64,000 nt of DNA from Candidatus Yanofskybacteria bacterium CG10_big_fil_rev_8_21_14_0_10_36_16 (lineage in GTDB: Bacteria; Patescibacteriota; Minisyncoccia; 2-02-FULL-40-12; IGHO2-01-FULL-4-A), in NCBI GenBank assembly GCA_002794035.1, contig PCXQ01000001.1, positions 3,256 through 67,255 on the forward strand. The letters run 5' to 3'. Positions 29,774 through 47,558 of this stretch are shown here, one piece after another. Every line of letters begins with the position of its first letter. Position 1 is the first letter of the stretch. Position numbers and translations under genes: made by a program. The notes under the pieces are model-generated. The model was not told the origin of the DNA. It made no database searches and was given only the letters and a program-made list of their open reading frames with translations.

Positions 29774-31255
29774 ATGGATAAAAAAATAATAGATTTAAGC
29801 AAAATTAGAAATATTTACATGATAGGTATTAAGGGTACTGGAATGGCGCCTTTGGCGGTTAATCTTAAAAATATGGGCAAAATAATTACTGGCTCAGATA
29901 GCAGTCAGGTATTTTTTACAGATGAATTGCTTAAAAAACAAAAGATAAACATACTTTCCCCTTTTAAGGCCGGCAATATTCCTAGTGATGTAGATTTGGT
30001 AATTACCTCTACCGCATATGATAGCAAAAACCCGGAAATAAAAGAAGCTGAAACAAGAGGCCTTTCTGTTTTGGGATATCCCGAAGTTATTGGACTTCTA
30101 AGTAATTCAATGAAATCTGTGGCAGTGTGCGGAAGTCACGGAAAAACCACAACAACTGCTGTCCTTTCATATATATTATCAAGGTCAAACATCGGTGTTC
30201 TGCCAAATGTCGGTTCAATAGTTCCCCAACTTATCAATTACAAACCGGATTTCCCTTCAGGGCTTATTAATTTGGAAAAGTCCGAGGCAAAATCAAGCAT
30301 TGATACGAGGCGTACAGATGGTACGTCGAGTGTTAATGCGAAGATTTTAACGAAGGAATTCGTCAAACCCGAAGGGATTGGCTCAAAAGATCTTGCTTTA
30401 GCAGGTCATAATTTGAGCCAAGTTAATATGCCGTGGTTTGTGTTTGAGGCTGATGAATATCAAAACAAACTAAGGCATTATAGTGCCGACATTGTAATAC
30501 TCACTAATATTGATTATGACCACCCTGATTTTTTTAAGACGCTAAATGAGTATAAAAAGGTTTTTGTTGATTTTGTAAAAAGAATTCCCAAGGACGGACT
30601 TTTGATATATTGTTCGGATGATAAAGAGGCATCAAAGATTTCCATATACGCAAAATGTCCCAAAATTGCTTATAATTTAGAATTATTAGATTTAAGTAAG
30701 TGGGAAATAAAACTTGCGGGCCAGCATAATATTCTTAATACAATGGCAGCTATTTTGGCTGCCAAACATCTCGGTGTAGATGAGGATACAATTAAAAAAG
30801 CTGTGGCAAATTTTCAGGGTGTTAAACGCCGTCTTGAGTTTATAAAAAATACCCGCATAAACGGGCAGGACTGTGTTTTAATAGATGATTATGGCCACCA
30901 CCCTACTGAGATCAAGGCTTCAATAAAAGCCATTAAAGAAAAATATCCCAACAAAGTTTTGTGGACTGTTTTTCAACCGCATACTTTTAGCAGGACAAGC
31001 GCATTGTTTGATGATTTTGCAAAATCATTTAAAGAATCTGATAAGACAGTTGTTTTGGATATTTATACTTCTGCAAGAGAAAAAAGTGGTTCTATACATT
31101 CTCGAGACTTGGTTAAACAAATGAATAGTTCAAATGTTTTTTATAAAAAAGACATTCAGCAAACAGCTAAATTTTTAAAACAAAAAATAAATTCTCCCAG
31201 TGTCATAATGACAATAGGAGCAAGCAATGTCTGGGAATTGCATGAGTTGGTTTAG
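29774..31255 (+). CDS. murC: UDP-N-acetylmuramate--L-alanine ligase
   Basis: MIGIKGTGMAPLA, CGSHGKTTTTA, DDYGHHPTEI. Confidence 0.8.
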   Translation: MDKKIIDLSKIRNIYMIGIKGTGMAPLAVNLKNMGKIITGSDSSQVFFTDELLKKQKINILSPFKAGNIPSDVDLVITSTAYDSKNPEIKEAETRGLSVLGYPEVIGLLSNSMKSVAVCGSHGKTTTTAVLSYILSRSNIGVLPNVGSIVPQLINYKPDFPSGLINLEKSEAKSSIDTRRTDGTSSVNAKILTKEFVKPEGIGSKDLALAGHNLSQVNMPWFVFEADEYQNKLRHYSADIVILTNIDYDHPDFFKTLNEYKKVFVDFVKRIPKDGLLIYCSDDKEASKISIYAKCPKIAYNLELLDLSKWEIKLAGQHNILNTMAAILAAKHLGVDEDTIKKAVANFQGVKRRLEFIKNTRINGQDCVLIDDYGHHPTEIKASIKAIKEKYPNKVLWTVFQPHTFSRTSALFDDFAKSFKESDKTVVLDIYTSAREKSGSIHSRDLVKQMNSSNVFYKKDIQQTAKFLKQKINSPSVIMTIGASNVWELHELV

Positions 31256-32671: not shown

Positions 32672-33718
32672 TTATTTCTTTAACATTTTTTCAGCAAGCG
32701 CTTTTAGGGCTTCTTCGCCTTCTACGCCGCGGAGGCGGCCGGCAAGAAAGCCGAGTTTGTAATTTATATCATCGGCTATTAAACGCCAATTTGTGTCAGC
32801 TAAGGTTTTTTTGAGTAACCTGCGAAGATCATATACACTACTCCGATCTTGCCGACCGGGTTTATTATCCTGCAATGAAAAACCCACGGTTAAATCCCGC
32901 CCTGCTTCCGGCTTATCAAAATCAAGTTTAGAATACCCAGCTTTTTTAATAGCGGGGTTGAGGTGATTCTGTAGTTCTACAATGGTAAGTTTTTTAATTT
33001 TAGCAACAGCATCATAAATCTCCTTGTTCTCCTCGTGGTCTTTCATCCATTCCGCTATTTCTTTAAGGTTGGCAGTCCATGAAATGTAATCCGTACCCTC
33101 TTTGTCAGATATACAATATTTTCTTCTATTTGCCTCAAAGTTTGGATCAACCTCTTCTCTCTTGTCTAAATCCCAGGTATCAGTTTCTTTCTGGCCACAC
33201 CCCGGACAATTATAAGCTGTCGTTATGATATTACCCTTCCGGTTATGGACGGATGTTCTATTCGCATGGCACTTAGGACAAGGGTTTTTATATTCCCACT
33301 CTTGACCGTTTTCCCAGTAAGCACGTCGGCTATTACAGTTACTGCAGTCAAAGAAAAAGAGAACCCTGTCGTTTTTATCATTAATATCGGTATGTAAGTC
33401 TTTAGATTCTACTTGCATTAAATGGCTACAACTAAGGCAGCGGATTCCTTTCGGCTCAATGGCGTTATTAATCCTATCGTCTTTGTCCTGATCGCGTTCC
33501 ATCCATTTATGTATGGTTTCTGATTTATTTCTATATCGCTCTCCTTTTTTGAAATATAGGCCAATTTCTGTAAAAGCACCGGTTATTGAGCCGGCTTTTT
33601 TATACTTATCTCTTGAAGAGATATGATTCACAGAGTTAACCCATTCTTCGCATTCTTTAATGGTTAGGCGGTCATAAAGTTCGTGATAATAACTTTCGTC
33701 TTTTAGATACTTATACAT
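32672..33718 (-). CDS. Hypothetical four-CxxC zinc-ribbon protein, last gene of the defense-island operon
   Basis: 348 aa; CLSCSH, CSNC, CPKCH, CPGC pairs. The gene is 3 bp downstream of the NERD gene. Confidence 0.45.
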   Translation of the reverse strand: MYKYLKDESYYHELYDRLTIKECEEWVNSVNHISSRDKYKKAGSITGAFTEIGLYFKKGERYRNKSETIHKWMERDQDKDDRINNAIEPKGIRCLSCSHLMQVESKDLHTDINDKNDRVLFFFDCSNCNSRRAYWENGQEWEYKNPCPKCHANRTSVHNRKGNIITTAYNCPGCGQKETDTWDLDKREEVDPNFEANRRKYCISDKEGTDYISWTANLKEIAEWMKDHEENKEIYDAVAKIKKLTIVELQNHLNPAIKKAGYSKLDFDKPEAGRDLTVGFSLQDNKPGRQDRSSVYDLRRLLKKTLADTNWRLIADDINYKLGFLAGRLRGVEGEEALKALAEKMLKK

Positions 33719-33721
33719 TTA

Positions 33722-34366
33722 TTAAGAATCGTTTAATCTTTTGAGGCCCTTGGCGCTTTCAATATGTGACCTCCGGCTCTTTTTGTCCTTTATATCGGCG
33801 TTTTTGATAATGCTACAAATCTCGTCCCTTTCACTGTCAGACAATACCAAATCAGTATATTGTCTGATTTTTTCTACAGTATCCCTGCCATTACCGACTG
33901 TATCCGTACCAGTAATTTTAAGCTTATCCGCAGACGGGAAAATTATAAATGAATAAATGGGAGTATTTTGAAATCGCGGCTTTATTAGTGCCTCTATTGC
34001 TTTGGTGTGGGCGTAATTTTGCCTTAATGGATTATAGAATCTGCTCTTTCGTCTATAAATAACTTGGGTCCAGTATTGATCGCTGGCTTTACCGAAAATC
34101 CATCCAGAATAATCTTTCGTTTCAATGCAAAAAATTCCAAATCTTGAAACTATGATGTGATCAATTTGAGTTGTGCTTGTATTGCCGGTTGAAGGCAACA
34201 AAACGTCGCTTAGATTTATATACTGTTTAGGATCCAGCCCTGTCAGTTTTTTGTTTACAAATCTTTCGCCTAGCCAACCTTTCCATTGCGGAAACTTATA
34301 TTTAACCCACTGAACAATGAGATAAAGAAATCCAAACCAAATTAGTAAATATATAATGTTTTTCAA
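33722..34366 (-). CDS. NERD (nuclease-related domain) protein, membrane-anchored
   Basis: N-terminal TM helix, then IDHIIVSRFGIFCIETKDYSGWIFG (NERD core). Confidence 0.7.
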   Translation of the reverse strand: MKNIIYLLIWFGFLYLIVQWVKYKFPQWKGWLGERFVNKKLTGLDPKQYINLSDVLLPSTGNTSTTQIDHIIVSRFGIFCIETKDYSGWIFGKASDQYWTQVIYRRKSRFYNPLRQNYAHTKAIEALIKPRFQNTPIYSFIIFPSADKLKITGTDTVGNGRDTVEKIRQYTDLVLSDSERDEICSIIKNADIKDKKSRRSHIESAKGLKRLNDS

Positions 34367-34389
34367 TTTATAGTTATTGATGTATTTAG

Positions 34390-35724
34390 TTAGAAGGCAT
34401 GTCGCTCATTTTTTGTGATTTTTTGTAAAAACATTTTTTGTTGTTTTTTCTTTTGTAACCAACCCAACTTACACAAATCAGTTACTACTGACTGGGATAT
34501 TTTATATAGTTGTTTATCTAAATCAATCACCGTATTATCAACTTGTAATGCCAAATCATTCAAGCCCATTAATTTGATACCATTTAGTGTTCTAACGCGG
34601 GATAGAGCCACATAACCCATCCCGTAAGTAAATGACTTGCTAAGGTCAATTTCTGCAGCGTCTAAGCTCATCCCTTGGCTCTTGTGGACCGTAATAGCCC
34701 AAGCAAGCCGCAGGGGTACTTGGCTTATCTCCGCTTTTATAAGGTCATTTTCTTCAACGGTCCAACTTGTTGGCCGAGCTGCCACTTCTTTGCCTTTAAT
34801 TGTTTTGATAATAGGATAACTATCACCATCAAAATCAATTACTTTGCCCAATGTTCCATTAACATATCCTTTATCAAAATTGTTCTTTACAAACATTACT
34901 ACGGCATCCTTTTTTAAGGTAAGCTCTTCCGGAGCCAAGCAGCCTTTTTTCAATGATTCTACAAGATATTTTTCACCCCTGCATTGCATTTTATAAGTTT
35001 TTGGTTCGCTTTCAATTTTATTAAGTTCAAAGTTATTAATTGCATCCACATCAACATTATGAGTATAAAGTTTGGTAGGAGTTATATTAGTAACGGCCGG
35101 TTTGTTAAACCGGCTTGTTAAAAGACCAAGTGATGTGTCAGATGTTTTGCCAGCTCTTATATCATTTAACACATTAAGAAAATTAAGATCTTGTTGCCGG
35201 TATTGTTCTGTCAGATAGCAAATCTTTATATTCATGTTCTCCCAAGCTTTAGATGTGTGTATAAAACTATCATCTTCACCATTTTTTGATACTGGCGGTA
35301 ATTGAAAAAAGTCTCCGGATAAAATTACCTGCAAACCGCCAAATGGCAAATCATTTTTCTTAAACGCTTTGCAAACCTTATCTACCATGTCTAATCGGAA
35401 TGAGTGAAGCATTGAAACCTCGTCTATTATTAAAACTTTTGTTTTTAGGAATCTTGCTCGGAAGTTAATATTTTTAAGTAACTTTGATAAATGATCATCG
35501 GTAATCTCGTTTTGTATTCCTAATCCCGCCCAAGAGTGTATTGTCCGGCCATTCATATGAGTTGCGGCAATGCCGGTTGAGGCGGTTATACCAACGCCAA
35601 TATTTTTCCCTTTCAGAAAGTTGATATACTTGTTTAATAAAAAAGTTTTCCCGCTTCCAGCGGGACCAGTTAGATACACATTATGTCCAAGTTTTAATAT
35701 ATCTAAAGCTTCCTGTTGGGTCAT
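34390..35724 (-). CDS. PIF1/RecD-family SF1 DNA helicase
   Basis: GPAGSGKTF Walker A, DEVSM, GDFFQLPPV, C-terminal RecD/Pif1-like SH3 region. Confidence 0.75.
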   Translation of the reverse strand: MTQQEALDILKLGHNVYLTGPAGSGKTFLLNKYINFLKGKNIGVGITASTGIAATHMNGRTIHSWAGLGIQNEITDDHLSKLLKNINFRARFLKTKVLIIDEVSMLHSFRLDMVDKVCKAFKKNDLPFGGLQVILSGDFFQLPPVSKNGEDDSFIHTSKAWENMNIKICYLTEQYRQQDLNFLNVLNDIRAGKTSDTSLGLLTSRFNKPAVTNITPTKLYTHNVDVDAINNFELNKIESEPKTYKMQCRGEKYLVESLKKGCLAPEELTLKKDAVVMFVKNNFDKGYVNGTLGKVIDFDGDSYPIIKTIKGKEVAARPTSWTVEENDLIKAEISQVPLRLAWAITVHKSQGMSLDAAEIDLSKSFTYGMGYVALSRVRTLNGIKLMGLNDLALQVDNTVIDLDKQLYKISQSVVTDLCKLGWLQKKKQQKMFLQKITKNERHAF

Positions 35725-35743
35725 AAATTAAAAACTTAAAAAC

Positions 35744-37531
35744 TTAAAAACTTTGATAATACTCCCTTATCATATTAGCCATTAATTTTTGTCTTTCTTC
35801 CAGAAATTTTTGATAATCAGTAACTTCCATATCTAACACACTTACTGGTATGGCATTTTCTTTCAAGTTGTTTTCAAGCTCATTCTTGTCTTTAATGCCA
35901 CTGTATTTGAAAACCCCATTTTCAAGATGTTCCAATATTTCAGTAAAGTATTGTTTGGGTGATTTTGCTCCGATTTTGATATTAATTTCACTTTGTGTGT
36001 AGGCAAAATTGGCTATTTGGTTGTAATCTCTCTGTTTTAGCTTGTTGCTTTCAAGATATTTTTTGGGAAATATATGGTGTATATCTCCACGATGTATAAT
36101 CATATCTCGTACTTTTATATCAGTGGAAAGAAAACCTCTTTTTCCTAATTTTACTTGTGCTGCCCAAAAAAGTTTTAAGTACGGACTGGATATACTAGAT
36201 TTAACTAAATCGCGCACCAGACCTTCTGACCAGAATGTATCTGATAATTCAGCCCTCTCTATTCCTTCAAGATATTTTTCAGCACGCTGCTCAACGATGT
36301 TTCTTATATCTGTATCAAATTGGCTTTCGGGAGACCCAGAGTATCTTCCTATTAGCAGCGACATTATGAGCCACTTGCTAACTATACGCTCTATTTCAGA
36401 ATCATTGTATTCTTGTGATCTCAATTTGAGATATAAAATATAAGCAAAGTTTAAAGCATTTTTTGAACGAATTAACCCGCTTACTTCAAACCCCGCTGCC
36501 TTAACTATCATAGAAAAGCGTTCATAATGAGTTTTGTTTACAAAATCTAATACGCCGTTTTTTAATTTATTATAAGAATCCTCAACGATGGCTTCTTCGT
36601 AAGCCCTTGTTTCAAAGTTTCTACCAGATAGTAAACTTACCAAATCCCTCAACCTTCCGCGATTAAACTCTTTAGTAAAGCCAACCCTAATAATATCGGT
36701 ATAATCTGGTTGATAAATGTCATCCTGCAAGTTTTTGGCCCAAAGTATTTTTTGATAATATTCTGTATTAGTAAAGTCATCACTGGCGGATTTAATATTT
36801 TCAATAAACTCCGGATGTCGCAGAGTATGCGCAAAGTAATCTATTGCTTTTCTTAGATTTATCCCAAAATCTCCAAATGCTGCGATTCGTGACATTGCAA
36901 AGTCGGCCTGACTTAACACAACCCCCTCGGAGTTAATCCTGATAAATATTTCAGTAACCGTTTCTATATCAAGATTTTCTTTTAACTCTATAAATCCGAG
37001 CTGCTTATCTTTGATAGAATAAAGCTTGTCAATGTTGTTTTGAATGGTTTGTAAGTCTGCTTTTGGATTTCTTTTTTTGTATTCGTCTACAAGCGCAAAA
37101 ATACCTCCCTCATTTTTCAAAAACTCCGAAATATCACCAATCCAATTAACATCTTTTTCAATCGCGGGTGTTAATGTTTCAAACTTTTCCTCAATGGGAT
37201 TGAAGGCAATCCTGATTCTCATTTTTCTATATTCCTTGTCTAAAACTTCTTCTCCGAGAATGGCTGCTCTTAGTGCCGTAATTCGCTGCTGTCCGTCTAT
37301 AACAATTTTTTTACCGGATGATAAACTGCCATCTTTTAGACGAATAGATGGGTTACGCCATACAATTATGTAGCCAACAGGAAAGCCTTTATAGATAGAA
37401 TCCATCAAATCCCTCACTTTAATTGAACTCCACACAAAGGGTCGTTGAATCTCTGGTATAGCAATTTCATTGGACTGAACCCAGCTTAAAATGTCTTTAA
37501 TAAAATATTGATTTATAATGTATTGTTGCAT
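35744..37531 (-). CDS. GmrSD-family Type IV restriction endonuclease (DUF262 + DUF1524)
   Basis: N-terminal IPEIQRPFVW and IDGQQRITAL (DGQQR, DUF262); C-terminal IHHIFPKKY His-Me finger (DUF1524). Start set at the MQQYI ATG, 4 bp after the res stop. Confidence 0.8.
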   Translation of the reverse strand: MQQYIINQYFIKDILSWVQSNEIAIPEIQRPFVWSSIKVRDLMDSIYKGFPVGYIIVWRNPSIRLKDGSLSSGKKIVIDGQQRITALRAAILGEEVLDKEYRKMRIRIAFNPIEEKFETLTPAIEKDVNWIGDISEFLKNEGGIFALVDEYKKRNPKADLQTIQNNIDKLYSIKDKQLGFIELKENLDIETVTEIFIRINSEGVVLSQADFAMSRIAAFGDFGINLRKAIDYFAHTLRHPEFIENIKSASDDFTNTEYYQKILWAKNLQDDIYQPDYTDIIRVGFTKEFNRGRLRDLVSLLSGRNFETRAYEEAIVEDSYNKLKNGVLDFVNKTHYERFSMIVKAAGFEVSGLIRSKNALNFAYILYLKLRSQEYNDSEIERIVSKWLIMSLLIGRYSGSPESQFDTDIRNIVEQRAEKYLEGIERAELSDTFWSEGLVRDLVKSSISSPYLKLFWAAQVKLGKRGFLSTDIKVRDMIIHRGDIHHIFPKKYLESNKLKQRDYNQIANFAYTQSEINIKIGAKSPKQYFTEILEHLENGVFKYSGIKDKNELENNLKENAIPVSVLDMEVTDYQKFLEERQKLMANMIREYYQSF

Positions 37532-37535
37532 AAAT

Positions 37536-40217
37536 CTATTTTTCCCAAAGTCGGGCCGCTTCATCAAAGCTTTTCGGCTTCTGTGATAGCTTATCCCAAT
37601 CTTCTTGTTTAATATAAAGCATTTTGTATTTAACGTCGTTCTGAATACTATTAACATCTTTTATCCATTGTTCCAAGCGTTTTATTTTCTCAACATCGTC
37701 TAAGTCTTCGCGGCCTTTGGTTTCTATGATGTACACTTCTTTTTCTGAAACCTTTACGAAAAAGTCCGGGTAGTAATTTGAAATATCACCACTGGCATTT
37801 CGGTAATCAATCCTAAAATTAACTGCGAAGTAGTTTTTAGCATAAGAAATTATATCTTCCACTCCATCAAGAAAACCGGCAAACTCAAGTTCAAAATGCC
37901 CATCTCCAACTATTTTATTAAATGCGCTTTTCTTCGGTACAAGATATGCTTGATCCTTCACGACAAATGGTCGGCTCTTACTAATCTTAATATAATTTTG
38001 GATCTCGGCCTCGCCCTTATCTACCACGGTCAATTCGTTTATCTTCTTCTTAAATGTTTCTGTTACTGTTTTGCTGGCTTCAAGCTCTGACAAATTACGC
38101 AAAGCATTAAGATCGTCCAACTGTATTTTTTTATCAAAAAGGTTGTTTTCAATAAACTCTTTTACTTGGCCGTATAGAATATCATAACCGCTAAATAACC
38201 GAAGCTCTTTCATAATAACATTGGTAAAATACCCTATAACACTTTGGTAATCTGGTATGAAATTACTATCTAACTCTGTCTTGTGAGTTATATCACCGCT
38301 GGTAATATCCCTGAATATAATTTCGCGCTTTTCTTCTTCTGAAAACTCCTTTAATTTAACTTTCTTGTGACCAAATGTTGAAACATCAAGGTCTGAAAGG
38401 TTTTTATATTCCCGATAAATACGCGGTGTAAGAATGGGTATTTGAATATCTAACCTCGGTATATCTTTTTTGGTGTTTTCATTATCAACCTCAACAACCA
38501 AAGGAGCTTTAGGTTCTGTGCCTTCTCCCATTTTTCTGTGCTCAAGCTCAACACCTTCACTTTTAATAGATTCCACAAAATCCATAAAAGCATCTGTGCC
38601 CACTACACTAACTAATTCCGGCACTTCTTCGTTGCGATACATTCGTCTTAACCCTCTTCCAAGTGTTTGTTCTGGCAATATGTTGCTCTTTGAAGAATAA
38701 GGCCGCAATCCAACAATGGTTGTAACATTACGGACATCCCAACCTTCTTTAAGCATTAACACGGAAACTATGGCCTTATAAGGATTATCAAAATTATCAA
38801 TCTTGTTTGCTGCTTCCCGCAGCTTTTTTAATTCCTCCTCATTTTTCCCAGTTGCGCTTTCGGATATTTCACCGTTATTTTTTGTATGAATTACTAATAC
38901 AGAGTTTTTAAACTCCGGATAAGTATTTTCAAGATATTCAGCAACTTCATCACCGTTCTTAGTATCGTCGGTCATTAAAAACAAAACTGCTTTTTTGCCC
39001 AGTTTTATATGTTCATCATAAACCTTTTTCCACTCCAAATAACCGAGATGGACATAGTCCTTGTATTTCTCACTGAACTTTGAACTTTTATGCTCTTGTA
39101 GCTTGGCTCGGCTTGCAGAATCGGGCAGGACCGGACGCTTTACTACGTTTTGGTGAATGGCTTCAACCAATGGGTAATCGCTTATTGTTTGAACAAATAT
39201 AGCTCCGTTATTATGTCTTGGGGTAGCTGTTACATCAATTTGTAAAGATAATTCTTTGCCTTTCATCTTGAGACGATTGTGTATATCTTCTATGGACTTA
39301 AACCACGCTAAACGGCCATCGTGGATATGGTGCGCTTCATCATTTAGTACAACCAGCTCATCTATATCTCTAACTATTACCCCAAGATCAACTTTTGATT
39401 CATTTGTTGCGCCAACTGGTTTTTCGCCAAGAAAATATCGGGCCGTGTTTTCATCTTCAAAACTCGCAGCACTGCTATTACTCTCATAAACCCGATGAAT
39501 GTTAGTTAGAAAAATGTTTCCAGTTTTTTTAACTACACCTATTTCGTCTTGAATATGCAAAGTTAATTGAAAATCATCCCGCCAATTTTGGCCTGCAAAA
39601 CCATTATCCGGAAGTACCGGGTCTTCAAAAAATATCTTTAAGCCGTCAAAATCAGACCTGATACGGTCTAAAACAATAATGTTGGGGGTGATAACCAAAA
39701 AGTTTCGGGCTAATTTTGAATCCTCTTCATAAAGTTTATGAAAGAAGCTCCAAGCAAGAAGTAAACTTAACACCTTTGTCTTGCCGCTTCCGGTTGCCAT
39801 TTTTATTACGAAACGTAACCAGGATTCTTCAAACATTCCTGCTGAAACTGCTCCGGAACTATCAAATCTTATAAGGTCGTATTTATCTTTTACTTTTGCT
39901 ACTTCGTGGAGATAAATGGTTGTTTCTACTGCTTCTCTCTGTCCAAAATAGTATTGAAAAAGAAAGGTCTCTCCATCTGTATTTTCTCTTGGGTGGTCTA
40001 TTTTAAACCACCATTTAAGTAACGCTTTACTTGTTTCACTTGCCCCTTCATAATCAGCATCTCGCCATTCTTTGACCTTCCTACGAAGTTGATCCACTAA
40101 AGGCGGTAAAAGCCGAGCATAGCCCTGTTCTCTTAATGTCTCGTCTGCCGGAAACCACCGGAGGTCCGGGTTTAAAATCTCGTGAGGTGATTGTGGAAAC
40201 TTAGGGTGTAGTGCCAT
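37536..40217 (-). CDS. res: Type III restriction-modification Res subunit (SF2 helicase-nuclease)
   Basis: MATGSGKTKV Walker A, NDEAHH DEAH box, C-terminal endonuclease region; downstream of mod. Confidence 0.8.
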   Translation of the reverse strand: MALHPKFPQSPHEILNPDLRWFPADETLREQGYARLLPPLVDQLRRKVKEWRDADYEGASETSKALLKWWFKIDHPRENTDGETFLFQYYFGQREAVETTIYLHEVAKVKDKYDLIRFDSSGAVSAGMFEESWLRFVIKMATGSGKTKVLSLLLAWSFFHKLYEEDSKLARNFLVITPNIIVLDRIRSDFDGLKIFFEDPVLPDNGFAGQNWRDDFQLTLHIQDEIGVVKKTGNIFLTNIHRVYESNSSAASFEDENTARYFLGEKPVGATNESKVDLGVIVRDIDELVVLNDEAHHIHDGRLAWFKSIEDIHNRLKMKGKELSLQIDVTATPRHNNGAIFVQTISDYPLVEAIHQNVVKRPVLPDSASRAKLQEHKSSKFSEKYKDYVHLGYLEWKKVYDEHIKLGKKAVLFLMTDDTKNGDEVAEYLENTYPEFKNSVLVIHTKNNGEISESATGKNEEELKKLREAANKIDNFDNPYKAIVSVLMLKEGWDVRNVTTIVGLRPYSSKSNILPEQTLGRGLRRMYRNEEVPELVSVVGTDAFMDFVESIKSEGVELEHRKMGEGTEPKAPLVVEVDNENTKKDIPRLDIQIPILTPRIYREYKNLSDLDVSTFGHKKVKLKEFSEEEKREIIFRDITSGDITHKTELDSNFIPDYQSVIGYFTNVIMKELRLFSGYDILYGQVKEFIENNLFDKKIQLDDLNALRNLSELEASKTVTETFKKKINELTVVDKGEAEIQNYIKISKSRPFVVKDQAYLVPKKSAFNKIVGDGHFELEFAGFLDGVEDIISYAKNYFAVNFRIDYRNASGDISNYYPDFFVKVSEKEVYIIETKGREDLDDVEKIKRLEQWIKDVNSIQNDVKYKMLYIKQEDWDKLSQKPKSFDEAARLWEK

Positions 40218-40218
40218 A

Positions 40219-40614
40219 TTAGGTCAATCTGTAGATATATGCGTCTTTAATAAAAATACCGTTAATGATGTTTGATTTAAATCTAATACCTGCTTTTGAC
40301 TGTTTTGATGTTTTTATCATTGTTCTCAAAAGTTTCAGAAAGTCATTATCGTGATGAAGTATTGTTATATTTGAAAGTCCGATGTCTTTTACTGTTTTTT
40401 CTTCCCCGAATTGATTGATGAAATCATTATAATTTTGCCGCGTATTTTTAATACGGTCATATTTTTTTGATGAAATTAATAATCTCCAAGCATCTGACTC
40501 GGGAACAAGTATCCAAAGAAAAACCGTTGGATTTATTTTTTGTTTATCCATCAAATCTAATAAGGTTTTTCCACTTTCAATTTTTGGTTCTTCTACCATA
40601 ATTTTTTTATCCAA
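40219..40614 (-). CDS. Hypothetical protein, partner of the HEPN protein (possible toxin/antitoxin component)
   Basis: 131 aa. Overlaps the HEPN gene by 22 bp and ends 1 bp before res. No clear MNT GS-x-D-x-D motif. Confidence 0.4.
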   Translation of the reverse strand: MDKKIMVEEPKIESGKTLLDLMDKQKINPTVFLWILVPESDAWRLLISSKKYDRIKNTRQNYNDFINQFGEEKTVKDIGLSNITILHHDNDFLKLLRTMIKTSKQSKAGIRFKSNIINGIFIKDAYIYRLT

Positions 40615-41030
40615 ACTAAAATACCCTTACGCCTATCTTTTATTGAGTTGATTAAAGCTTCTGCGTCAGTTTTCTTGCATATTCCATATCTGCTTTCTTC
40701 GGTCCAATCTTTAACCGTGCTCCAATTTGACTCAAAGCCCTTATCTTTGCCTGCTCTCTTATCAAAGGCCCACTTGATACCACTTACACTCAATAAGTCG
40801 TTTAAATCGTGACTATAGAGTTTCTGATAAACACTCTTTTTTGGAGGGAAGCTCTTTTCTTTGACATTTTTGCAATAGCAAGCCTTGAGGGCAAGTTCAA
40901 CGGCATAACCTGCTAAATAGTAAGCACCACTATACTCCTTATTATTAAAAAGGGTTATCGCTTCTCTGATGCGCCTCAATGCTAACTTTTTAAAATCACC
41001 GTATTCTGGATTGTCCCAAAATAAAGCCAT
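40593..41030 (-). CDS. HEPN-domain protein
   Basis: AYYLAGYAVELALKA helix and YSHDLNDLL motif typical of HEPN. Confidence 0.55.
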   Translation of the reverse strand: MALFWDNPEYGDFKKLALRRIREAITLFNNKEYSGAYYLAGYAVELALKACYCKNVKEKSFPPKKSVYQKLYSHDLNDLLSVSGIKWAFDKRAGKDKGFESNWSTVKDWTEESRYGICKKTDAEALINSIKDRRKGILVWIKKLW

Positions 41031-41033
41031 ACT

Positions 41034-43283
41034 TTATATACTAATCTCAATTATTTTCATTGTATCGTTACCGAAAATATCTACGACCTTTATGGCAATT
41101 TTACGTCTGCCTTTTGGTAATTCTTTATAAGCGGTTATAAACTCAAGGTTTCTGTCCTTTTTGGTTCTAAATGATTGCCATTCGTTTTCAAAAATGTAAT
41201 CGCCGGTCCATTGTTCTTCAATTTCTTCCTTTTCGTTTTTTATAGCCACAACTTCTTTTTTGCTTTCAAAGTTAAAGTCAACGGACCAGTAATCAATCCA
41301 ATCACTCCATTTTTCAGTCAAAACATCCCTTGTAACTACACCCTCTTTGTCTTTTGAGATTTTAATAATTTTACCATTTTCTACTACAAGCTTTTTGCTG
41401 CCGTTTTTGAGGCTTTCTTCTACCTCTTTAATTGAATCTTGATTATAAAAAACTGAAAAATCAGTTAACTCAATGGCCAATGAGTTCTTTTTTATATGAG
41501 GCTTAACTTCAATGTAAGATACGTCGTGAAAAACAACTTGGTTTTTTTCTACAGCCCGTTTGTCAAATACATCTCGTGGAATATATTTAAGGGCCAAATC
41601 AACACCTTGATTTTTGGCATCTTCTTGTATTCTCGGAAATAATCCCATTTCAAACTCAAAAGCCAATATGTCTACTTTAGTTATTTTCTTTTCAACTGCT
41701 TCTTTAATTACTTCTTCAACAAATAACCGAGTAACTGGCAAGTTAATTGGGCCAACAGATACTAATCTTGCAGATTTTTTACCGAAAAAGGTTTTGAAAT
41801 TATTAATTGGTTCTGCTTTGTATGCTGACAGGATTAAAGAAACAAAATCTTTTTCTTTCTGTGCGATTTGTTTTTGCTTTTGCTCGTCCCGAAGATTGGG
41901 GTTTATACCAACGTAATGCTGCCTTTCATATTTACCAAGATTTAATACTTCAAATGCCCGATAATCTTTCCCAGTCTTTTTAAGTTCTCGTTGCACTCCA
42001 ATCATTCTCTTGCGTGTTGTGTGAATTGAGAACTTACCCAAGTCAGAACCAATCCATTTGCGGCTTAGTTTTTCAGCTGCAGCAAGGGTGGTACCAGAAC
42101 CGACAAAGAAGTCGGCAACAAGATCGTCCTCGTTTGAAGAGGCCTTTATTATGCGCTCAAGTAAGGACTCTGGTTTTTGGGTTGGATAATTATTACGTTC
42201 TTTAGCCATTGGATTAACTGGATTTATATCTAGCCAAATATCTTCAGAAACATTTCCTTTAGTATCTTCGTAAAACCTTTTTACATATGGTAACCCACTT
42301 TCAGAAAAAACAATAAGTCCCCGTTTCATTCCTTCATCTATTCTTTCTTGAGACCATATCCAGTGTTTGCCTGCCGGTGGATACAGCAACTTTTCACCGA
42401 ATTTTTTTGCTTCACCTTGTCCCTTTTGAGTAAAATCAGCCAAAGAATATCTTTTTCCCGTTTGCTCATCGGTGTACCTGTAATGAGTTTTTAATAATTT
42501 TTCCGATTTCGGTAAAAATTGAGTATTAAAAATAGTCTTCTCTTTATCTTTTGAATAAAAGAAGACTGTATCATGTACGTTTGGATAAGTTTTTGACTGT
42601 GGCTTAGCCGATGTCAGTTTTTGCCAAATAATTTCATTTTTAAAATTATTAGTTCCAAATATCTCATCTAATACCAACCTCATGTAGCTGTTAACCCTCC
42701 AATCACAATGTACATAAATACTCCCGTTTGCGGCCAACAAATCTCGCATCAGTGAAAGTCGCTCGTAAATCATAGAGATAAAACTATCTGCTCCCTTGCC
42801 CCAAGTATCCCGATATGCTAATTCCTCTAATACTGTTGGTTGTTTCTTAAACTCTTCGCCCCCAACCTCAATATCCATAGAAAAATCTGCCCCAACATCA
42901 AAAGGCGGATCAATGTAGATAAGTTTAATGCCCCCATTAGCTTCAATTTCTTCTCGTAGGGGTCCATTTTTTAAGCTTGATAGGATTAGTTTGTTGTCAC
43001 CCCAAATAAGTTTATTAGTCCAGCCCTTGATTTGGCGGCCGCGCTGGTCAAAATCAAACAACACCTGCTGGCGCTTTACTTCCTTCTCACTTCTCGGCTC
43101 ATCAACCTGTTCAATAACCTGAAATGGCAAGATAACATTGGTGACTTCATTTGTCTTGCCGTTCCAGACAAGCTCAACCTCTCGTTTGTCCTCAAACAAA
43201 AGAAACCGGTACTTATCGGGAAGAGGTTTACCGGCTTCAATAAACTTTATAGCATCGCGTTTTTCATTGTCAGTTAGATCCAT
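41034..43283 (-). CDS. mod: Type III restriction-modification Mod subunit (beta-class N6/N4 DNA methyltransferase)
   Basis: DPPF (motif IV) precedes FFVGSGTTLAAA (motif I). 749 aa with a large target-recognition region. Confidence 0.8.
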   Translation of the reverse strand: MDLTDNEKRDAIKFIEAGKPLPDKYRFLLFEDKREVELVWNGKTNEVTNVILPFQVIEQVDEPRSEKEVKRQQVLFDFDQRGRQIKGWTNKLIWGDNKLILSSLKNGPLREEIEANGGIKLIYIDPPFDVGADFSMDIEVGGEEFKKQPTVLEELAYRDTWGKGADSFISMIYERLSLMRDLLAANGSIYVHCDWRVNSYMRLVLDEIFGTNNFKNEIIWQKLTSAKPQSKTYPNVHDTVFFYSKDKEKTIFNTQFLPKSEKLLKTHYRYTDEQTGKRYSLADFTQKGQGEAKKFGEKLLYPPAGKHWIWSQERIDEGMKRGLIVFSESGLPYVKRFYEDTKGNVSEDIWLDINPVNPMAKERNNYPTQKPESLLERIIKASSNEDDLVADFFVGSGTTLAAAEKLSRKWIGSDLGKFSIHTTRKRMIGVQRELKKTGKDYRAFEVLNLGKYERQHYVGINPNLRDEQKQKQIAQKEKDFVSLILSAYKAEPINNFKTFFGKKSARLVSVGPINLPVTRLFVEEVIKEAVEKKITKVDILAFEFEMGLFPRIQEDAKNQGVDLALKYIPRDVFDKRAVEKNQVVFHDVSYIEVKPHIKKNSLAIELTDFSVFYNQDSIKEVEESLKNGSKKLVVENGKIIKISKDKEGVVTRDVLTEKWSDWIDYWSVDFNFESKKEVVAIKNEKEEIEEQWTGDYIFENEWQSFRTKKDRNLEFITAYKELPKGRRKIAIKVVDIFGNDTMKIIEISI

Positions 43284-43371: not shown

Positions 43372-43785
43372 CTAAACGAGAAATTGAGCGACAAACCAGA
43401 TGCCGGCAGTAATTAAAAACCATATCAACTGATTGGCTTCCCTAAAATCTCCGGAGCGGTAGTAGCGGCCAACTTGGGTTACGGTAAATATCGCGGCAGT
43501 CATCGGGATAAAGTTAAATGGAATATCAAATCTAAAGGACACGAGATAATATACGATTATTAAAGCTACCGCTTCGGAAAAACCCGAAAAGCGTGATTTT
43601 AAAATATCGCTATGTTTATCTAACAACCCTTTGAATGGGGCATAAATGAACATAGCAATAATTGGACTAATGGCTGCGATATAAAACAATGAGAATAAGG
43701 CCCATAAGAATGGCAAAAATATAAAAGAAGAAATAATAACTATACCCCATAGCAGTAAACTAATTTTTGATTTTATTACATCCAT
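43372..43785 (-). CDS. Hypothetical 4-TM membrane protein
   Basis: Start taken at MDVIKSK. The track's upstream extension is encoded by the hairpin cluster. Confidence 0.35.
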   Translation of the reverse strand: MDVIKSKISLLLWGIVIISSFIFLPFLWALFSLFYIAAISPIIAMFIYAPFKGLLDKHSDILKSRFSGFSEAVALIIVYYLVSFRFDIPFNFIPMTAAIFTVTQVGRYYRSGDFREANQLIWFLITAGIWFVAQFLV

Positions 43786-44012
43786 AAAATTACAAAACCC
43801 GCCGCTAGGCGATGGATTTCTCCACCTGTTACCCTTTCGGGTAACAACCACTGCTGGTGCTCCTAAACGACGGGTTTAGTACCCAGCAGTGGTTTTTACG
43901 TCATACCTCAAATGTTGACATTTTGAGGGTTAGGCAATTTTTAGTTGTTAGACCAATATTATCACAAAACCTTGAAAATCTCCATAATTTTCGTTTTACT
44001 TAAATTAATACT

Positions 44013-44768
44013 ATGGCCTTAATTAACGACAAACAATTTAAACAATTTTTAGAACTCCTAATAAATAAGGTTGAATTAAGAAACGATATTCATTTGGGAA
44101 TACAATACCGTGAATTAATCCAAATATTTTTAGATGATAACGCTATCAAAGATTATTTGCGCTATTCTGAAAATAAGAAGTTGTTAAAATTAATAGGCAT
44201 ATCTAAATATAAAGAAAAGGAAGATCCTTACCCTGATGATTATTATATAAACGAGATAACGCCTAACAATGATTTTATAGGCCCGAAAAGATATTATGCC
44301 GTAAAGAGGTATATACGGTATAATTTCTACCCAAAGGACAACTTTATACTTGATGTGTCTGATAAAAAAATTAAAGGTTTTTATAAGCAGTATCAAAAAG
44401 AAGGTCCGGGGCAAGACCCAAAACGGCTAATTTCCAAAAATAAAAGTGCTTATTTTTATAAATCAAAACAAATAGTTTTTGACAGTGAAGAAACTGACTA
44501 CTTCAGAGTATTTGATGTCCTTTACGAAAATAGTGGGCAAGACAACTTTTTGTCATATGAAAATATAGATAAAGAAATGGTCCGAAGGGGCTCGCCAAAA
44601 CTTATAGATGATCAACAAAAAATTAAACGTATTCATAATGCAGTTAAGAACTTATTTTTATATTCTCGTTGCGGAAGTGAAAAGCTAAAAAATACTACGC
44701 CCAATAAAACTGAACTAATAAAAAAGGTTAGAGGGAGAGGGTGTGTTTTCAATAACCCTCTAATTTAA
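44013..44768 (+). CDS. Hypothetical protein (first gene of the plus-strand element module)
   Basis: 251 aa; Lys/Tyr-rich; no motif recognised. Confidence 0.35.
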   Translation: MALINDKQFKQFLELLINKVELRNDIHLGIQYRELIQIFLDDNAIKDYLRYSENKKLLKLIGISKYKEKEDPYPDDYYINEITPNNDFIGPKRYYAVKRYIRYNFYPKDNFILDVSDKKIKGFYKQYQKEGPGQDPKRLISKNKSAYFYKSKQIVFDSEETDYFRVFDVLYENSGQDNFLSYENIDKEMVRRGSPKLIDDQQKIKRIHNAVKNLFLYSRCGSEKLKNTTPNKTELIKKVRGRGCVFNNPLI

Positions 44769-44792
44769 TAAGTTATCTCTCAATTTCTTGTG

Positions 44793-44820
44793 GACAGCCA
44801 AATATCGGCTGTCTTTTTTT
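44793..44820. terminator. Intrinsic terminator
   Basis: GACAGCC-aaatatc-GGCTGTC followed by T8. Confidence 0.7.
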
Positions 44821-44899
44821 CTTTTTTTACTTGGTTTTAGCGGCCAAAGAGATAAACGGAGAAATTAAAAGATATTAAATATTGATTCAAAATTAAATT

Positions 44900-45526: not shown

Positions 45527-45609
45527 CTTTTGTTTCTTGTTCGGGCTCTTGGCAAAGGCCATAGTAAGCTCCGGCCAGGAGCTCAAACAAGAAACGCGGA
45601 GCTTACTTT

Positions 45610-47154: not shown

Positions 47155-47186
47155 TAAAACAAGGGGTACTACCCATAACTTAAGTT

Positions 47187-47558
47187 ATGCAGTGTAAATA
47201 CATAAAAAATAATAAAAAACAGTGCGGAGCAAACGCAATGCTCAAAAACAGTTATTGCTTTTATCATAATCCGGATGTCAAAAAAGCAGATAAAAAAGAG
47301 GCTCAATCAAGAGGTGGTAAGGGCAATAAAAGTAGAGTTAGTGAAACTCTTCCGCCAATAACTTTCAAGAAGTCCCGAAACGTCGTCGGATTGCTTGAGG
47401 AAACTATTAATTTGGTTAGGGCAGGAAAAATGGAAATACGAGTTGCTAACTGCATAGGATACTTGTCGGGCCACATCATCAAGGCAATTGAGGTTTCAGA
47501 GCTTACGCAACGCCTACAGGAAGTTGAGAAAAAAATAGAAATAAAATGGCAGGAATAA
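47187..47558 (+). CDS. Hypothetical protein with N-terminal Cys cluster
   Basis: CKYIKNNKKQCG...CFYH. Confidence 0.3.
   Translation: MQCKYIKNNKKQCGANAMLKNSYCFYHNPDVKKADKKEAQSRGGKGNKSRVSETLPPITFKKSRNVVGLLEETINLVRAGKMEIRVANCIGYLSGHIIKAIEVSELTQRLQEVEKKIEIKWQE

What the first reader, a model, noticed from the sequence alone, without database searches (positions are those of the whole stretch)
32672..43283. 10.6-kb strictly co-directional defense island with 1-23 bp gene spacing
Eight minus-strand genes are packed with gaps or overlaps of 3, -22, 1, 4, 19, 23 and 3 bp. In transcription order they are mod, HEPN, a 131-aa ORF, res, GmrSD, PIF1-like helicase, NERD and a Zn-ribbon protein. Known restriction modules (Type III, Type IV) sit directly beside uncharacterised genes, the arrangement in which new defense systems are usually found. 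Immediately next to it is an integrase-bearing element, and the region between murC (housekeeping) and ychF (housekeeping) has no housekeeping content at all.
Basis: partly seen in the sequence, partly recalled or inferred. Interest (0 to 1): 0.8.

Follow-up and report, generated by a model that had tools for sequence, protein, structure and literature searches.

The report
Defence-gene cargo array in CPR mobile element
Eight tightly packed genes in a Candidatus Yanofskybacteria genome are a mosaic of separate anti-phage modules, carried in what looks like a serine-recombinase mobile element, and they end in a conserved zinc-ribbon gene that follows a different defence gene in each of dozens of related bacteria.

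Summary
Eight minus-strand genes (32672-43283) have spacings of 3, -22/-7, 1, 4, 19, 23 and 3 bp, and every domain call is confirmed.

They are not one system:
- Only mod and res recur together elsewhere.
- HEPN plus the 126-aa ORF is a portable pair with a weak MNT-like fold.
- GmrSD was not found again in the loci examined.
- NERD and Pif1 relatives each sit in unrelated contexts.

The zinc-ribbon protein (ZnR) has at least 240 relatives, almost all in Patescibacteria. In 61 of 76 loci the gene just upstream is co-directional (median gap 6 bp). Those 61 genes belong to about 48 families, many defence-like (KAP NTPase, Shedu, Avs4, PARIS, Mrr, R-M). Downstream lie host genes or recombinases. 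In 47 of 80 loci a backbone gene (serine recombinase, terminase-like, methylase) lies within 10 kb.

The recombinase module beside the array is therefore probably the same element, roughly 18 kb between murC and ychF. No empty site was found to prove it.

An orphan Rfam RNA, LOOT, heads the array and is about 9-fold enriched near ZnR.

Verdict: an ordinary kind of thing (a defence hotspot in a mobile element), in an undescribed Patescibacteria variant.

The parts
43811..43936 (-). LOOT RNA (Rfam RF03000), at the 5' head of the co-directional array
   Evidence: Rfam gathering-threshold match, 86.2 bits against a cut-off of 46.4, covering the whole model. My own covariance model scores it 116 bits. 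A terminator-like hairpin lies at its 3' end, 43812-43799.
43372..43785 (-). 137-aa predicted multi-pass membrane protein, 25 bp after LOOT and 88 bp before mod
   Evidence: ORF and sequence. Called as a gene on public contigs. No Pfam or PHROG hit. In other loci LOOT is likewise followed 43-108 bp later by a variable gene, and about two thirds of those have a TM-like segment by a crude test.
41034..43283 (-). Type III-like DNA methyltransferase (mod), 749 aa
   Evidence: N6_N4_Mtase 1.9e-47. PADLOC MTase_III 2.3e-117. The DPPF motif comes before FVGSGT in the sequence. A 62% identical homolog lies upstream of a ZnR gene in L042.
40593..41030 (-). HEPN-domain protein, 145 aa
   Evidence: Pfam HEPN 1.2e-6, 29.1 bits against a cut-off of 22. 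PADLOC PDC-M28A 2e-6 and AbiV 8e-4. A 48% identical homolog is paired with an orf126 homolog in L179.
40219..40614 (-). 126/131-aa protein of unknown family (orf126), overlapping the HEPN stop; weak minimal-nucleotidyltransferase-like fold
37536..40217 (-). Type III-like restriction subunit (res), 893 aa: SF2 helicase plus C-terminal PD-(D/E)xK nuclease
   Evidence: ResIII 1.7e-15 and Tn7_TnsA-like_N 8.6e-6. NCBIfam BPTD_3080 restriction endonuclease 5.9e-81, below its cut-off. GSGKT, DEAHH and PD...ExK motifs are visible in the sequence. 77% identical homolog in L042.
35744..37531 (-). GmrSD-family (DUF262/DUF1524) Type IV restriction enzyme, 595 aa
   Evidence: GmrSD_N 6.1e-33; GmrSD_C 0.0049, weak. 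PADLOC HEC-05 5.9e-32. DGQQR and HHIFP motifs in the sequence. The 595-aa start is the one used by public gene calls.
34390..35724 (-). Pif1-family SF1B helicase, 444 aa
   Evidence: PIF1 1.7e-40 and Pif1_2B_dom 4.9e-7. PHROG Dda-like helicase 1e-71. At least 198 relatives at 54-81% identity in metagenomes, in non-conserved contexts.
33722..34366 (-). NERD-domain protein with a hydrophobic N-terminal segment, 214 aa
   Evidence: NERD 3.5e-33. More than 720 homologs of about 207-214 aa. Three contexts examined; none has Pif1 or ZnR.
32672..33718 (-). ZnR: 348-aa double-zinc-ribbon protein of unknown function, the conserved last gene of the array
   Evidence: 149 homologs at 41-58% identity. 240 relatives in species-representative genomes. 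Invariant cysteine pairs. AF2 pLDDT 85.7. No informative fold or sequence match. The upstream neighbour is hypervariable and tightly spaced.
44013..49702 (+). Divergently transcribed backbone module: 251-aa ORF, CHC2 zinc-finger (primase-type) protein 44900-45526, 514-aa ORF, 123-aa ORF, small ORFs, and a large serine recombinase 48059-49702
   Evidence: Zn_ribbon_DnaG 4.6e-20; Resolvase, Recombinase and Zn_ribbon_recom domains. PHROG DNA primase 3.5e-19 and integrase 2.5e-97. The recombinase stop overlaps the ychF start by 68 nt.
29774..31255 (+). murC, host flank on the ZnR side
   Evidence: All three Mur ligase domains.
49635..50783 (+). ychF, host flank on the recombinase side
   Evidence: MMR_HSR1 plus YchF-GTPase_C. 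Canonical N-terminus MSHTKLAIGIVGLPNVGKST.

Best explanation
The array is a mosaic of independent anti-phage and addiction modules. It occupies a cargo slot of what is probably one integrative element of about 18.4 kb, from after murC to the start of ychF, in a Candidatus Yanofskybacteria (CPR/Patescibacteria) genome.

The element has two arms.
- One arm holds the large serine recombinase and a primase-type module.
- The other arm diverges from it. It starts with a LOOT RNA and a small membrane protein, carries the cargo, and ends with the conserved ZnR gene next to host DNA.

The cargo modules are:
- A Type III-like R-M system. Mod methylates self DNA; Res, a helicase plus PD-(D/E)xK nuclease, cuts unmodified DNA.
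- A portable HEPN plus MNT-like pair lodged between mod and res. It may act as a toxin-antitoxin or abortive-infection module, or as an addiction module.
- A GmrSD-type Type IV enzyme that would cut modified phage DNA. It complements the R-M system.
- A Pif1-family helicase.
- A membrane-anchored NERD nuclease-like protein.

Status of each step:
- Shown: gene content, spacing, modularity across genomes, and the ZnR/LOOT/recombinase association.
- Inferred: co-transcription from the LOOT end, each module acting on its own, the Type III and Type IV enzymes covering complementary phage DNA states, and the whole interval being one mobile element.
- ZnR's role is unknown. The most likely one is a backbone gene (regulatory or structural for the element) whose 5' side is the insertion slot for cargo.
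For: Domain identities.

Modularity:
- In L042 (Colwellbacteria) the same mod (62%) and res (77%) lie upstream of a ZnR gene. There a ClpP-like gene sits between mod and res, and a KAP NTPase replaces GmrSD, Pif1 and NERD.
- HEPN plus orf126 recurs with the same 22-bp overlap in L179, next to DUF3800.
- NERD and Pif1 homologs lie in unrelated contexts.

ZnR as the conserved end of a variable slot:
- 240 relatives.
- The upstream gene is co-directional in 61 of 76 loci, with a median gap of 6 bp. Those 61 genes fall into about 48 families.
- Their Pfam and PADLOC hits include KAP NTPase/QatA/PifA, Macro, Mrr_cat, Schlafen AlbA_2, SduA_C, Avs4 (E=0), AriA/B, PD-Lambda-5_B, a Type I S subunit and a caspase.
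- Downstream neighbours are instead recombinases and host genes such as IF-2, GT2 and M23 peptidase.
- In five loci the slot is empty and the methylase gene abuts ZnR.

Linkage to an element:
- Serine recombinase, Terminase_6C-like, a 140-aa gene and a 427-aa methylase recur with ZnR in a fixed divergent layout. 47 of 80 loci have at least one of them within 10 kb.
- ZnR occurs in up to three diverged copies (73-88% identical) in one MAG, each with backbone genes nearby.

LOOT:
- Present in 35 of 84 ZnR loci against 2 of 83 control loci, p = 1.8e-10.
- It heads a cargo array that ends in ZnR in L042, L050, L075, L087 and L069, as in the window.

The window's recombinase gene runs 68 nt into ychF. 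That places an element end at ychF.
Against: - No empty murC-ychF site or circular junction was found, and no att sites could be identified. That the whole 18.4 kb is one mobile unit is therefore inferred, not shown.
- Apart from its serine recombinase, which is only 23-27% identical to the usual ~440-aa recombinases (53% to the one in L080), the window's backbone (primase-type gene and unknown ORFs) has no homolog in the usual terminase/methylase backbone. The analogy is architectural, not homology-based.
- Defence activity has not been tested for any gene here.
- Pif1 neighbourhoods include housekeeping genes, so Pif1 may not be defensive at all.
- Gene calls in the related loci come from a simple ORF picker of my own. 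The gap statistics carry start-codon error.
Confidence: 0.68

Rival explanations
1. All eight genes form one integrated multi-component defence system. It would be transcribed and would function as a unit, for example an R-M core with helicase, nuclease and regulatory accessories, in the manner of DISARM, BREX or MADS.
For: - Strict co-directionality and 1-23 bp spacing.
- No convincing internal terminator on the coding strand.
- NERD and Pif1 give weak hits to MADS and BREX component models: MAD6 7e-9, PglW 3e-5, mad8 6e-5.
Against: - Only mod and res co-occur elsewhere, in L042.
- None of the 80 ZnR loci, 78 Pif1 loci or 3 NERD loci repeats the combination.
- The MADS and BREX hits cover only the generic NERD or P-loop parts and fall far below the family cut-offs.
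- Equally tight spacing joins unrelated genes in other loci.
Confidence: 0.04
2. Pif1 plus NERD, possibly with ZnR, is a new helicase-nuclease defence module analogous in logic to Hachiman, Gabija or Nhi. The SF1B helicase would load on foreign DNA and the NERD (PD-(D/E)xK-type) nuclease would degrade it.
For: - 23-bp and 3-bp spacing.
- A close Pif1 relative (60%) lies directly upstream of a ZnR gene in L059.
- In 11 Pif1 loci a PD-(D/E)xK nuclease gene (PDDEXK_1/Cas4-like) lies beside or near Pif1, immediately upstream in 10 of them. A helicase-nuclease pairing therefore recurs with a different nuclease.
- One other ZnR locus has a NERD-domain gene just upstream.
Against: - No NERD next to any of 78 Pif1 homologs.
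- No Pif1 next to three NERD homologs, including the closest one (71%) in another Yanofskybacteria.
- Several of the 11 PD-(D/E)xK-adjacent loci are the same organism sampled repeatedly.
- Only 1-2 of 80 ZnR loci have any Pif1 nearby.
Confidence: 0.1
3. ZnR is a chromosomal anchor gene, not an element gene. Mobile elements and defence genes pile up at a recombination hotspot just upstream of it. The window then holds two things: a chromosomal defence island (LOOT to ZnR) and a separate serine-recombinase element inserted beside it at ychF.
For: - Host genes usually follow ZnR.
- The window's backbone is unrelated to the backbone seen elsewhere.
- L042 shows a LOOT-to-ZnR array with no backbone gene in the 10 kb fetched.
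- ZnR is rare in viral contig collections: 4 hits in IMG/VR.
Against: - ZnR is absent from most Patescibacteria: 240 relatives among 185,579 species genomes.
- It occurs in two or three diverged copies in single MAGs.
- It has no conserved downstream synteny.
- In L026, L033 and L027 it lies between terminase or methylase genes and the recombinase, that is, inside the element.
Confidence: 0.18

Closest known systems
Type III restriction-modification systems (EcoP15I-type; NCBIfam BPTD_3080 restriction endonuclease family)
   Same: - Mod is an N6/N4 methyltransferase with motif IV before motif I.
- Res is an SF2 DEAH helicase with a C-terminal PD-(D/E)xK nuclease.
- mod precedes res on one strand.
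   Different: - Two unrelated genes (HEPN and orf126) sit between mod and res. A ClpP-like gene occupies that slot in the Colwellbacteria homolog.
- Res scores 273 bits against a cut-off of 800 for the BPTD_3080 equivalog.
- Mod has a C-terminal extension of about 320 aa with no family match.
GmrSD / BrxU / SspE-type Type IV (modification-dependent) restriction enzymes
   Same: - N-terminal DUF262 domain with a DGQQR motif.
- C-terminal His-Me-finger-like region.
- Single-gene architecture.
- Best PADLOC match is HEC-05, a DUF262/DUF1524 candidate.
   Different: - The C-terminal domain matches GmrSD_C only weakly: E 0.0049, 17 bits against a cut-off of 23.
- Substrate specificity is unknown.
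HEPN-MNT toxin-antitoxin modules
   Same: - A HEPN protein paired with a small overlapping partner.
- The pair moves as a unit (L179).
- The partner's predicted fold is closest to minimal nucleotidyltransferases, including the MNT of a solved HEPN-MNT complex.
   Different: - The gene order is HEPN first.
- No GSx(n)DxD nucleotidyltransferase motif is visible in the family's conserved residues.
- No Pfam NTP_transf_2 hit.
- One homolog occurs without HEPN (L178).
Defence hotspots of P2-like prophages and P4-like satellites (Rousset et al. 2022, PMC9122126); PICI/PICMI-type minimal satellites (PMC10803314)
   Same: - Conserved backbone genes flank a slot whose content differs from genome to genome and is rich in defence systems.
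- The element is small and carries a recombinase plus either a primase-type gene (this window) or a terminase-like gene (most relatives), with no virion structural genes in view.
   Different: - The host phylum is Patescibacteria.
- The integrase is a serine recombinase, not a tyrosine one.
- The flanking genes (ZnR, LOOT RNA) are unrelated to those of P2 or P4.
- Mobility, induction and a helper phage have not been shown.
Hyper-promiscuous partner domains such as the Panacea (DUF4065) antitoxin domain (recalled from the literature, not tested here)
   Same: One conserved protein sits immediately beside, and is tightly spaced with, many unrelated partner families.
   Different: - The partners here are often the last gene of a large multi-gene system rather than a small toxin.
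- There is no evidence that ZnR neutralises or binds anything.

Membership tests
Type III R-M | Mod subunit: N6/N4 DNA methyltransferase with motif IV (DPPY/F) before motif I (FxGxG) | tested here: met
   N6_N4_Mtase 1.9e-47. PADLOC MTase_III 2.3e-117. DPPF lies near residue 125 and FVGSGT near residue 395.
Type III R-M | Res subunit: SF2 helicase motifs plus a C-terminal PD-(D/E)xK endonuclease | tested here: met
   ResIII 1.7e-15 and TnsA-like nuclease 8.6e-6. GSGKT, DEAHH and PD..ExK are visible in the sequence.
Type III R-M | Curated family score (NCBIfam BPTD_3080 restriction endonuclease equivalog) | tested here: not met
   272.7 bits against a cut-off of 800, with a partial match to profile positions 69-410 of 970. 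Res is related to that equivalog but is not a member of it.
Type III R-M | mod and res adjacent in one operon | tested here: inconclusive
   Same strand and order, but two genes (833 bp) lie between them. The L042 homolog also has an insert, a different one.
Type III R-M | ATP-dependent cleavage that needs two inversely oriented unmethylated sites | not testable with these tools
   This is a biochemical property.
GmrSD Type IV restriction | N-terminal DUF262 (ParB-like NTPase) domain | tested here: met
   GmrSD_N 6.1e-33, 115 bits against a cut-off of 33. DGQQR motif.
GmrSD Type IV restriction | C-terminal DUF1524 His-Me-finger nuclease | tested here: inconclusive
   GmrSD_C E 0.0049, 17.2 bits against a cut-off of 23. 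An HHIFP...N...N motif is visible.
GmrSD Type IV restriction | Cleaves modified (e.g. glucosyl-hmC) DNA | not testable with these tools
   This is a biochemical property.
HEPN-MNT toxin-antitoxin | HEPN-domain protein | tested here: met
   Pfam HEPN, 29.1 bits against a cut-off of 22.
HEPN-MNT toxin-antitoxin | Partner is a minimal nucleotidyltransferase with the GS...DxD catalytic motif | tested here: not met
   - No NTP_transf_2 hit.
- The conserved residues of 45 family members (G10, D18, W29, W38, Y57, T97, D119, Y123, R124) do not form that motif.
HEPN-MNT toxin-antitoxin | The two genes travel together | tested here: inconclusive
   Together, with the same overlap, in L179. orf126 occurs without HEPN in L178. 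Only three contexts were available.
Pif1-family SF1B helicase | PIF1 ATPase core plus 2B domain | tested here: met
   PIF1 1.7e-40 and Pif1_2B_dom 4.9e-7.
NERD-domain proteins | NERD domain above the Pfam cut-off | tested here: met
   114.8 bits against a cut-off of 22.1.
Known multi-gene defence systems (BREX, MADS, DISARM, Hachiman, Gabija and others in PADLOC-DB 2.0) | Component proteins match the system's specific models over most of their length | tested here: not met
   There are only partial, weak hits to generic domains: PglW 2.9e-5 on NERD, mad8 5.9e-5 on the P-loop, and MAD6 at 34.7 bits against a cut-off of 460.
Mobile-element defence hotspot (P2/P4-type) | Conserved flanking genes with a variable, defence-rich slot across many genomes | tested here: met
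   About 48 families occupy the position upstream of ZnR in 61 loci, many of them defence families. Backbone genes recur.
Mobile-element defence hotspot (P2/P4-type) | The element is demonstrably mobile (att sites, empty sites, excision) | tested here: inconclusive
   - No empty site was found on public contigs.
- No att repeats were found.
- Indirect support comes from multi-copy, diverged ZnR elements in single MAGs and from the recombinase ORF running into ychF.
LOOT RNA (Rfam RF03000) | Covariance-model score above the Rfam gathering threshold | tested here: met
   86.2 bits against 46.4, over the full-length model.

The most novel reading that the evidence does not exclude
ZnR, together with the LOOT RNA, marks a cargo-docking site shared by a family of serine-recombinase elements across Patescibacteria. 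On this reading ZnR is not a passive flank. It is a promiscuous partner, translationally coupled to whichever defence gene lies upstream, and it acts as a regulator, neutraliser or licensing factor for that gene. LOOT would be a cis-acting leader RNA controlling the element's outward-facing operons. If so, ZnR neighbourhoods would be a ready-made discovery tool for new CPR immune systems, and an orphan Rfam motif would gain a biological role.
Probability: 0.22. Interest if true: 0.75.

Novelty: new variant of a known kind. Interest (0 to 1): 0.5.

Why it matters
CPR/Patescibacteria have tiny genomes, mostly lack CRISPR, and are hard to culture. How they resist phages, and how their mobile elements work, is poorly known. 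The one paper found on Patescibacteria islands describes a single Type I R-M island and mentions none of the elements seen here.

This locus shows a Yanofskybacteria genome spending about 10 kb on stacked, complementary restriction modules, probably carried on an integrative element.

The comparative work adds two reusable handles:
- **ZnR.** A conserved zinc-ribbon gene whose upstream position holds a different gene in almost every genome. About 48 families occupy it in 61 loci, and roughly half are singletons without annotation. It is a guilt-by-association route to new CPR defence genes.
- **LOOT.** A genomic context for LOOT RNA, an Rfam family for which a literature search here found no described function.

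The array itself holds known kinds of systems and, by itself, is ordinary.

Tried and rejected
- **Empty-site search.** Exact-protein look-ups with ychF (not on record) and murC (only the same locus on two contigs) gave no island-free allele.
- **att sites.** The repeat search over 31000-51000 gave only short, AT-rich chance matches.
- **orf126 function from sequence.** No PDB relatives. One weak PHROG of unknown function.
- **Eight-gene or three-gene conserved system.** Rejected from the neighbourhood data.
- **Pif1 as a plain housekeeping gene.** Not adopted. Its neighbours are not syntenic and include many conflict-system domains alongside housekeeping ones.
- **LOOT literature.** The 2017 paper's main text does not mention the motif and its supplements are not held. 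A search for 'LOOT motif' returned no papers.
- **Promoter and terminator scans.** Counts were at or below shuffled expectation and were not used as evidence.

Full report
**1. What is there**

The window comes from a Candidatus Yanofskybacteria (CPR/Patescibacteria) metagenome-assembled genome. The zinc-ribbon protein is identical to an NCBI entry of that name. The locus is found base-for-base on three public contigs.

The ORF list and the public gene calls agree on eight consecutive minus-strand genes between 32672 and 43283. The spacings are 3, -22 or -7, 1, 4, 19, 23 and 3 bp.

- A Type III-like methyltransferase: N6_N4_Mtase 1.9e-47; PADLOC MTase_III 2.3e-117.
- A HEPN protein.
- A 126/131-aa ORF with no family.
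- A Res-type SF2 helicase with a C-terminal PD-(D/E)xK nuclease.
- A GmrSD-family enzyme: GmrSD_N 6.1e-33.
- A Pif1-family helicase: 1.7e-40.
- A NERD protein: 3.5e-33.
- A 348-aa protein, ZnR, with four invariant CxxC pairs that model as two zinc ribbons.

Two more co-directional features sit just upstream. One is a 137-aa membrane protein at 43372-43785. The other is a LOOT RNA at 43811-43936, Rfam RF03000, 86 bits.

Beyond them, on the other strand, lie a CHC2 primase-type zinc-finger protein, three unknown ORFs and a 547-aa large serine recombinase. The recombinase stop codon lies 68 nt inside ychF. murC bounds the other side.

**2. Is the packing special?**

Within this window, yes. Only 11 of 40 co-directional junctions outside the array are 25 bp or less.

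Across comparable islands of other Patescibacteria, no. There, 59% of co-directional junctions are 30 bp or less. Tight spacing therefore does not show that these genes work together.

**3. One system or a mosaic?**

I took each uncharacterised gene to its relatives.

- **NERD.** More than 720 homologs of the same ~210-aa architecture. Three contexts were examined. The closest, 71% identical and in another Yanofskybacteria, sits after a KAP NTPase, Vsr and a C5 methylase. None of the three has Pif1 or ZnR.
- **Pif1.** At least 198 relatives at 54-81% identity in metagenomes. In 78 loci no neighbour matches NERD, ZnR or GmrSD. The neighbours are not syntenic. They mix housekeeping genes (Pol III alpha, MscS, glycosyltransferases) with conflict-type genes (Fic, PD-(D/E)xK/Cas4-like, Type I R-M, RhuM, TOTE primase).
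- **mod and res.** These are the only window genes that recur together. In L042, a Colwellbacteria from the same sample series, they are 62% and 77% identical. There a ClpP-like gene lies between them, and a KAP NTPase follows res in place of GmrSD, Pif1 and NERD.

The array is a mosaic of separable modules.

**4. The conserved piece is ZnR**

ZnR has 149 detected homologs at 41-58% identity. It has 240 relatives among 185,579 species-representative genomes. Most of the 80 loci listed are labelled as Patescibacteria lineages. Up to three diverged copies occur in one MAG.

I called ORFs in 80 loci and clustered them.

*Upstream of ZnR*
- The gene immediately upstream is on the same strand in 61 of 76 loci. 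The median gap is 6 bp, and 51 gaps are 30 bp or less.
- Those 61 genes fall into about 48 families.
- Their Pfam and PADLOC matches read like a defence catalogue: KAP NTPase/QatA/PifA-like, Macro, SMC-like and AAA_15/21 ATPases, Mrr, Schlafen AlbA_2, DUF4238, caspase, Shedu SduA_C, Avs4 (E = 0), PARIS AriA/B, PD-Lambda-5_B, Type I specificity subunits and Type II methylases.

*Downstream of ZnR*
- The first sizeable downstream genes are instead tyrosine or serine recombinases and ordinary host genes: IF-2, glycosyltransferases, M23 peptidase, CreD, TspO.
- The downstream gap is looser, with a median of 29 bp.

*Backbone*
- On the far side of the cargo a backbone recurs in a fixed divergent layout. 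It consists of a ~440-aa serine recombinase, a Terminase_6C-like protein, a 140-aa protein and a ~427-aa N6/N4 methylase, often with a LexA-like repressor.
- 47 of 80 loci show at least one of these within 10 kb.
- In five loci the methylase gene abuts ZnR directly, which is an empty slot.
- In L026, L033 and L027, ZnR lies between backbone genes and the recombinase, that is, inside the element.
- Four IMG/VR contigs carry ZnR. One shows the full recombinase/terminase/methylase backbone and two others show part of it.

The window has the same layout with a different backbone. A recombinase and primase-type arm points one way. The LOOT, cargo and ZnR arm points the other way and ends at host DNA.

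ZnR itself remains functionally opaque. There is no Pfam, PADLOC, NCBIfam or PHROG family for it. Structure searches gave only generic zinc-ribbon and ferredoxin-like similarities.

**5. LOOT RNA**

A covariance model built from eight copies finds LOOT in 35 of 84 ZnR loci (1.42 Mb). It finds LOOT in only 2 of 83 control Patescibacteria loci (0.72 Mb). Fisher p = 1.8e-10.

In 31 of 34 loci with a callable gene, LOOT lies within about 110 bp (mostly 43-108 bp) upstream of a same-strand, variable gene. About two thirds of those genes have an N-terminal hydrophobic segment by a crude test.

Its recurrent positions are:
- abutting the serine recombinase gene;
- before a gene next to the terminase-like gene;
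- just after ZnR;
- at the head of a cargo array that ends in ZnR, as in the window, L042, L050, L075, L087 and L069.

I treat it as part of the element and a candidate leader RNA. Its function is not established.

**6. Most likely mechanism**

- Inferred: the arm from LOOT to ZnR is co-transcribed.
- From established family knowledge: the Type III-like pair methylates self DNA and cuts unmodified invaders. The GmrSD-type enzyme cuts hypermodified DNA that escapes the first. A HEPN pair lodged inside the R-M operon could act as an abortive-infection or addiction module.
- Weakest link: Pif1 and NERD. They may be a helicase and a nuclease acting on foreign DNA, or simply further cargo.
- Inferred: ZnR is the constant gene whose 5' side receives cargo.

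The alternatives are one integrated system, a Pif1-NERD system, and ZnR as a chromosomal anchor with a separate recombinase element. They are weighed in the rivals section.

**7. Limits**

- No empty site, att site or excision evidence was obtained.
- Neighbourhood gene calls are from a simple ORF picker.
- Only 80 of the 240 ZnR loci, 78 Pif1 loci and 3 NERD loci were examined.
- Nothing has been tested experimentally.

**8. Verdict**

The array is an ordinary kind of thing: a defence island in what is probably a mobile-element hotspot, made of known system types. The setting, however, is undescribed, namely a hotspot bracketed by ZnR and LOOT in serine-recombinase elements of Patescibacteria. 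The literature searches found only general reports of Patescibacteria genomic islands and the P2/P4 hotspot precedent.

Noticed in passing
window 43811-43936 (-); L009-L088 (positions): LOOT RNA (Rfam RF03000; no described function found in the literature searched) is physically linked to ZnR and serine-recombinase elements. It occurs in 35 of 84 ZnR loci against 2 of 83 control Patescibacteria loci. In 9 loci it directly abuts the serine recombinase gene. In 3 loci it lies between ZnR and the recombinase or backbone genes.
   Followed up: partly
window 43372-43785 (-); genes downstream of LOOT in about 30 loci: LOOT usually lies 43-108 bp upstream of a same-strand gene. The family of that gene varies, and about two thirds have an N-terminal transmembrane-like segment by a crude test. 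This looks like a 5' leader for membrane-anchored proteins. In the window a terminator-like hairpin (43812-43799) closes the RNA.
   Followed up: partly
window 49635-49702: The serine recombinase ORF ends 68 nt inside the ychF coding sequence, in another frame. One end of the element, and presumably its att site, therefore lies at the very 5' end of ychF.
   Followed up: partly
L042 3864-4481 (Colwellbacteria): In the homologous Type III-like R-M, a ClpP-like protease gene (CLP_protease 4.5e-21) occupies the slot between mod and res that holds HEPN and orf126 in the window. The mod-res junction of this R-M family seems to accept accessory genes.
   Followed up: partly
L009-L088, e.g. L029 1767-6422: A recurrent minimal gene set appears in many Patescibacteria MAGs, with no virion structural genes within the 10-kb flanks fetched. 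It consists of a serine recombinase (~440 aa), a Terminase_6C-like protein (~488 aa), a ~140-aa protein and an N6/N4 methylase (~427 aa), often with a LexA-like repressor. It could be a satellite-like or cryptic element family.
   Followed up: partly
L029, L051, L060, L077 (immediately after ZnR); L061, L075 (one gene further): A ~122-136-aa protein family (cluster c13, no Pfam hit) lies just after ZnR. It overlaps the ZnR stop by 4 bp in L051, L060 and L077 and follows it after a 4-bp gap in L029. It may be a second conserved partner of ZnR. It is absent from the window.
   Followed up: no
L113, L127-L132, L174 and others (Pif1 loci): In 11 Pif1-homolog loci a ~280-aa PD-(D/E)xK (PDDEXK_1/Cas4-like) nuclease gene lies beside or near the helicase, directly upstream in 10. 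This could be a helicase-nuclease pair. Several of these loci are the same organism from different samples.
   Followed up: partly
window 40219-40614 (-): orf126 belongs to an unannotated family of ~128-aa stand-alone proteins. It has 683 representatives at 50% clustering (E up to 1e-3) and a weak PHROG match (phrog_5760, unknown function).
   Followed up: partly
L019, L026, L027 (one MAG, JBAXYM01): There are three ZnR copies in one genome, 73-88% identical, each with its own cargo and backbone genes. Two of them lie about 19 kb apart on the same contig.
   Followed up: partly
window 26439-28874 (-): An 811-aa protein combines a spermidine-synthase-like domain with a C-terminal M28 peptidase domain, next to murG/murC-region genes. 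This is an unusual fusion.
   Followed up: no
record titles: Some ZnR-bearing contigs are labelled Methanoregula, Woesearchaeota, Omnitrophota, Bdellovibrionales or Gammaproteobacteria. The likely causes are mis-binning or mislabelling of Patescibacteria contigs. Real transfer outside the phylum was not excluded.
   Followed up: no
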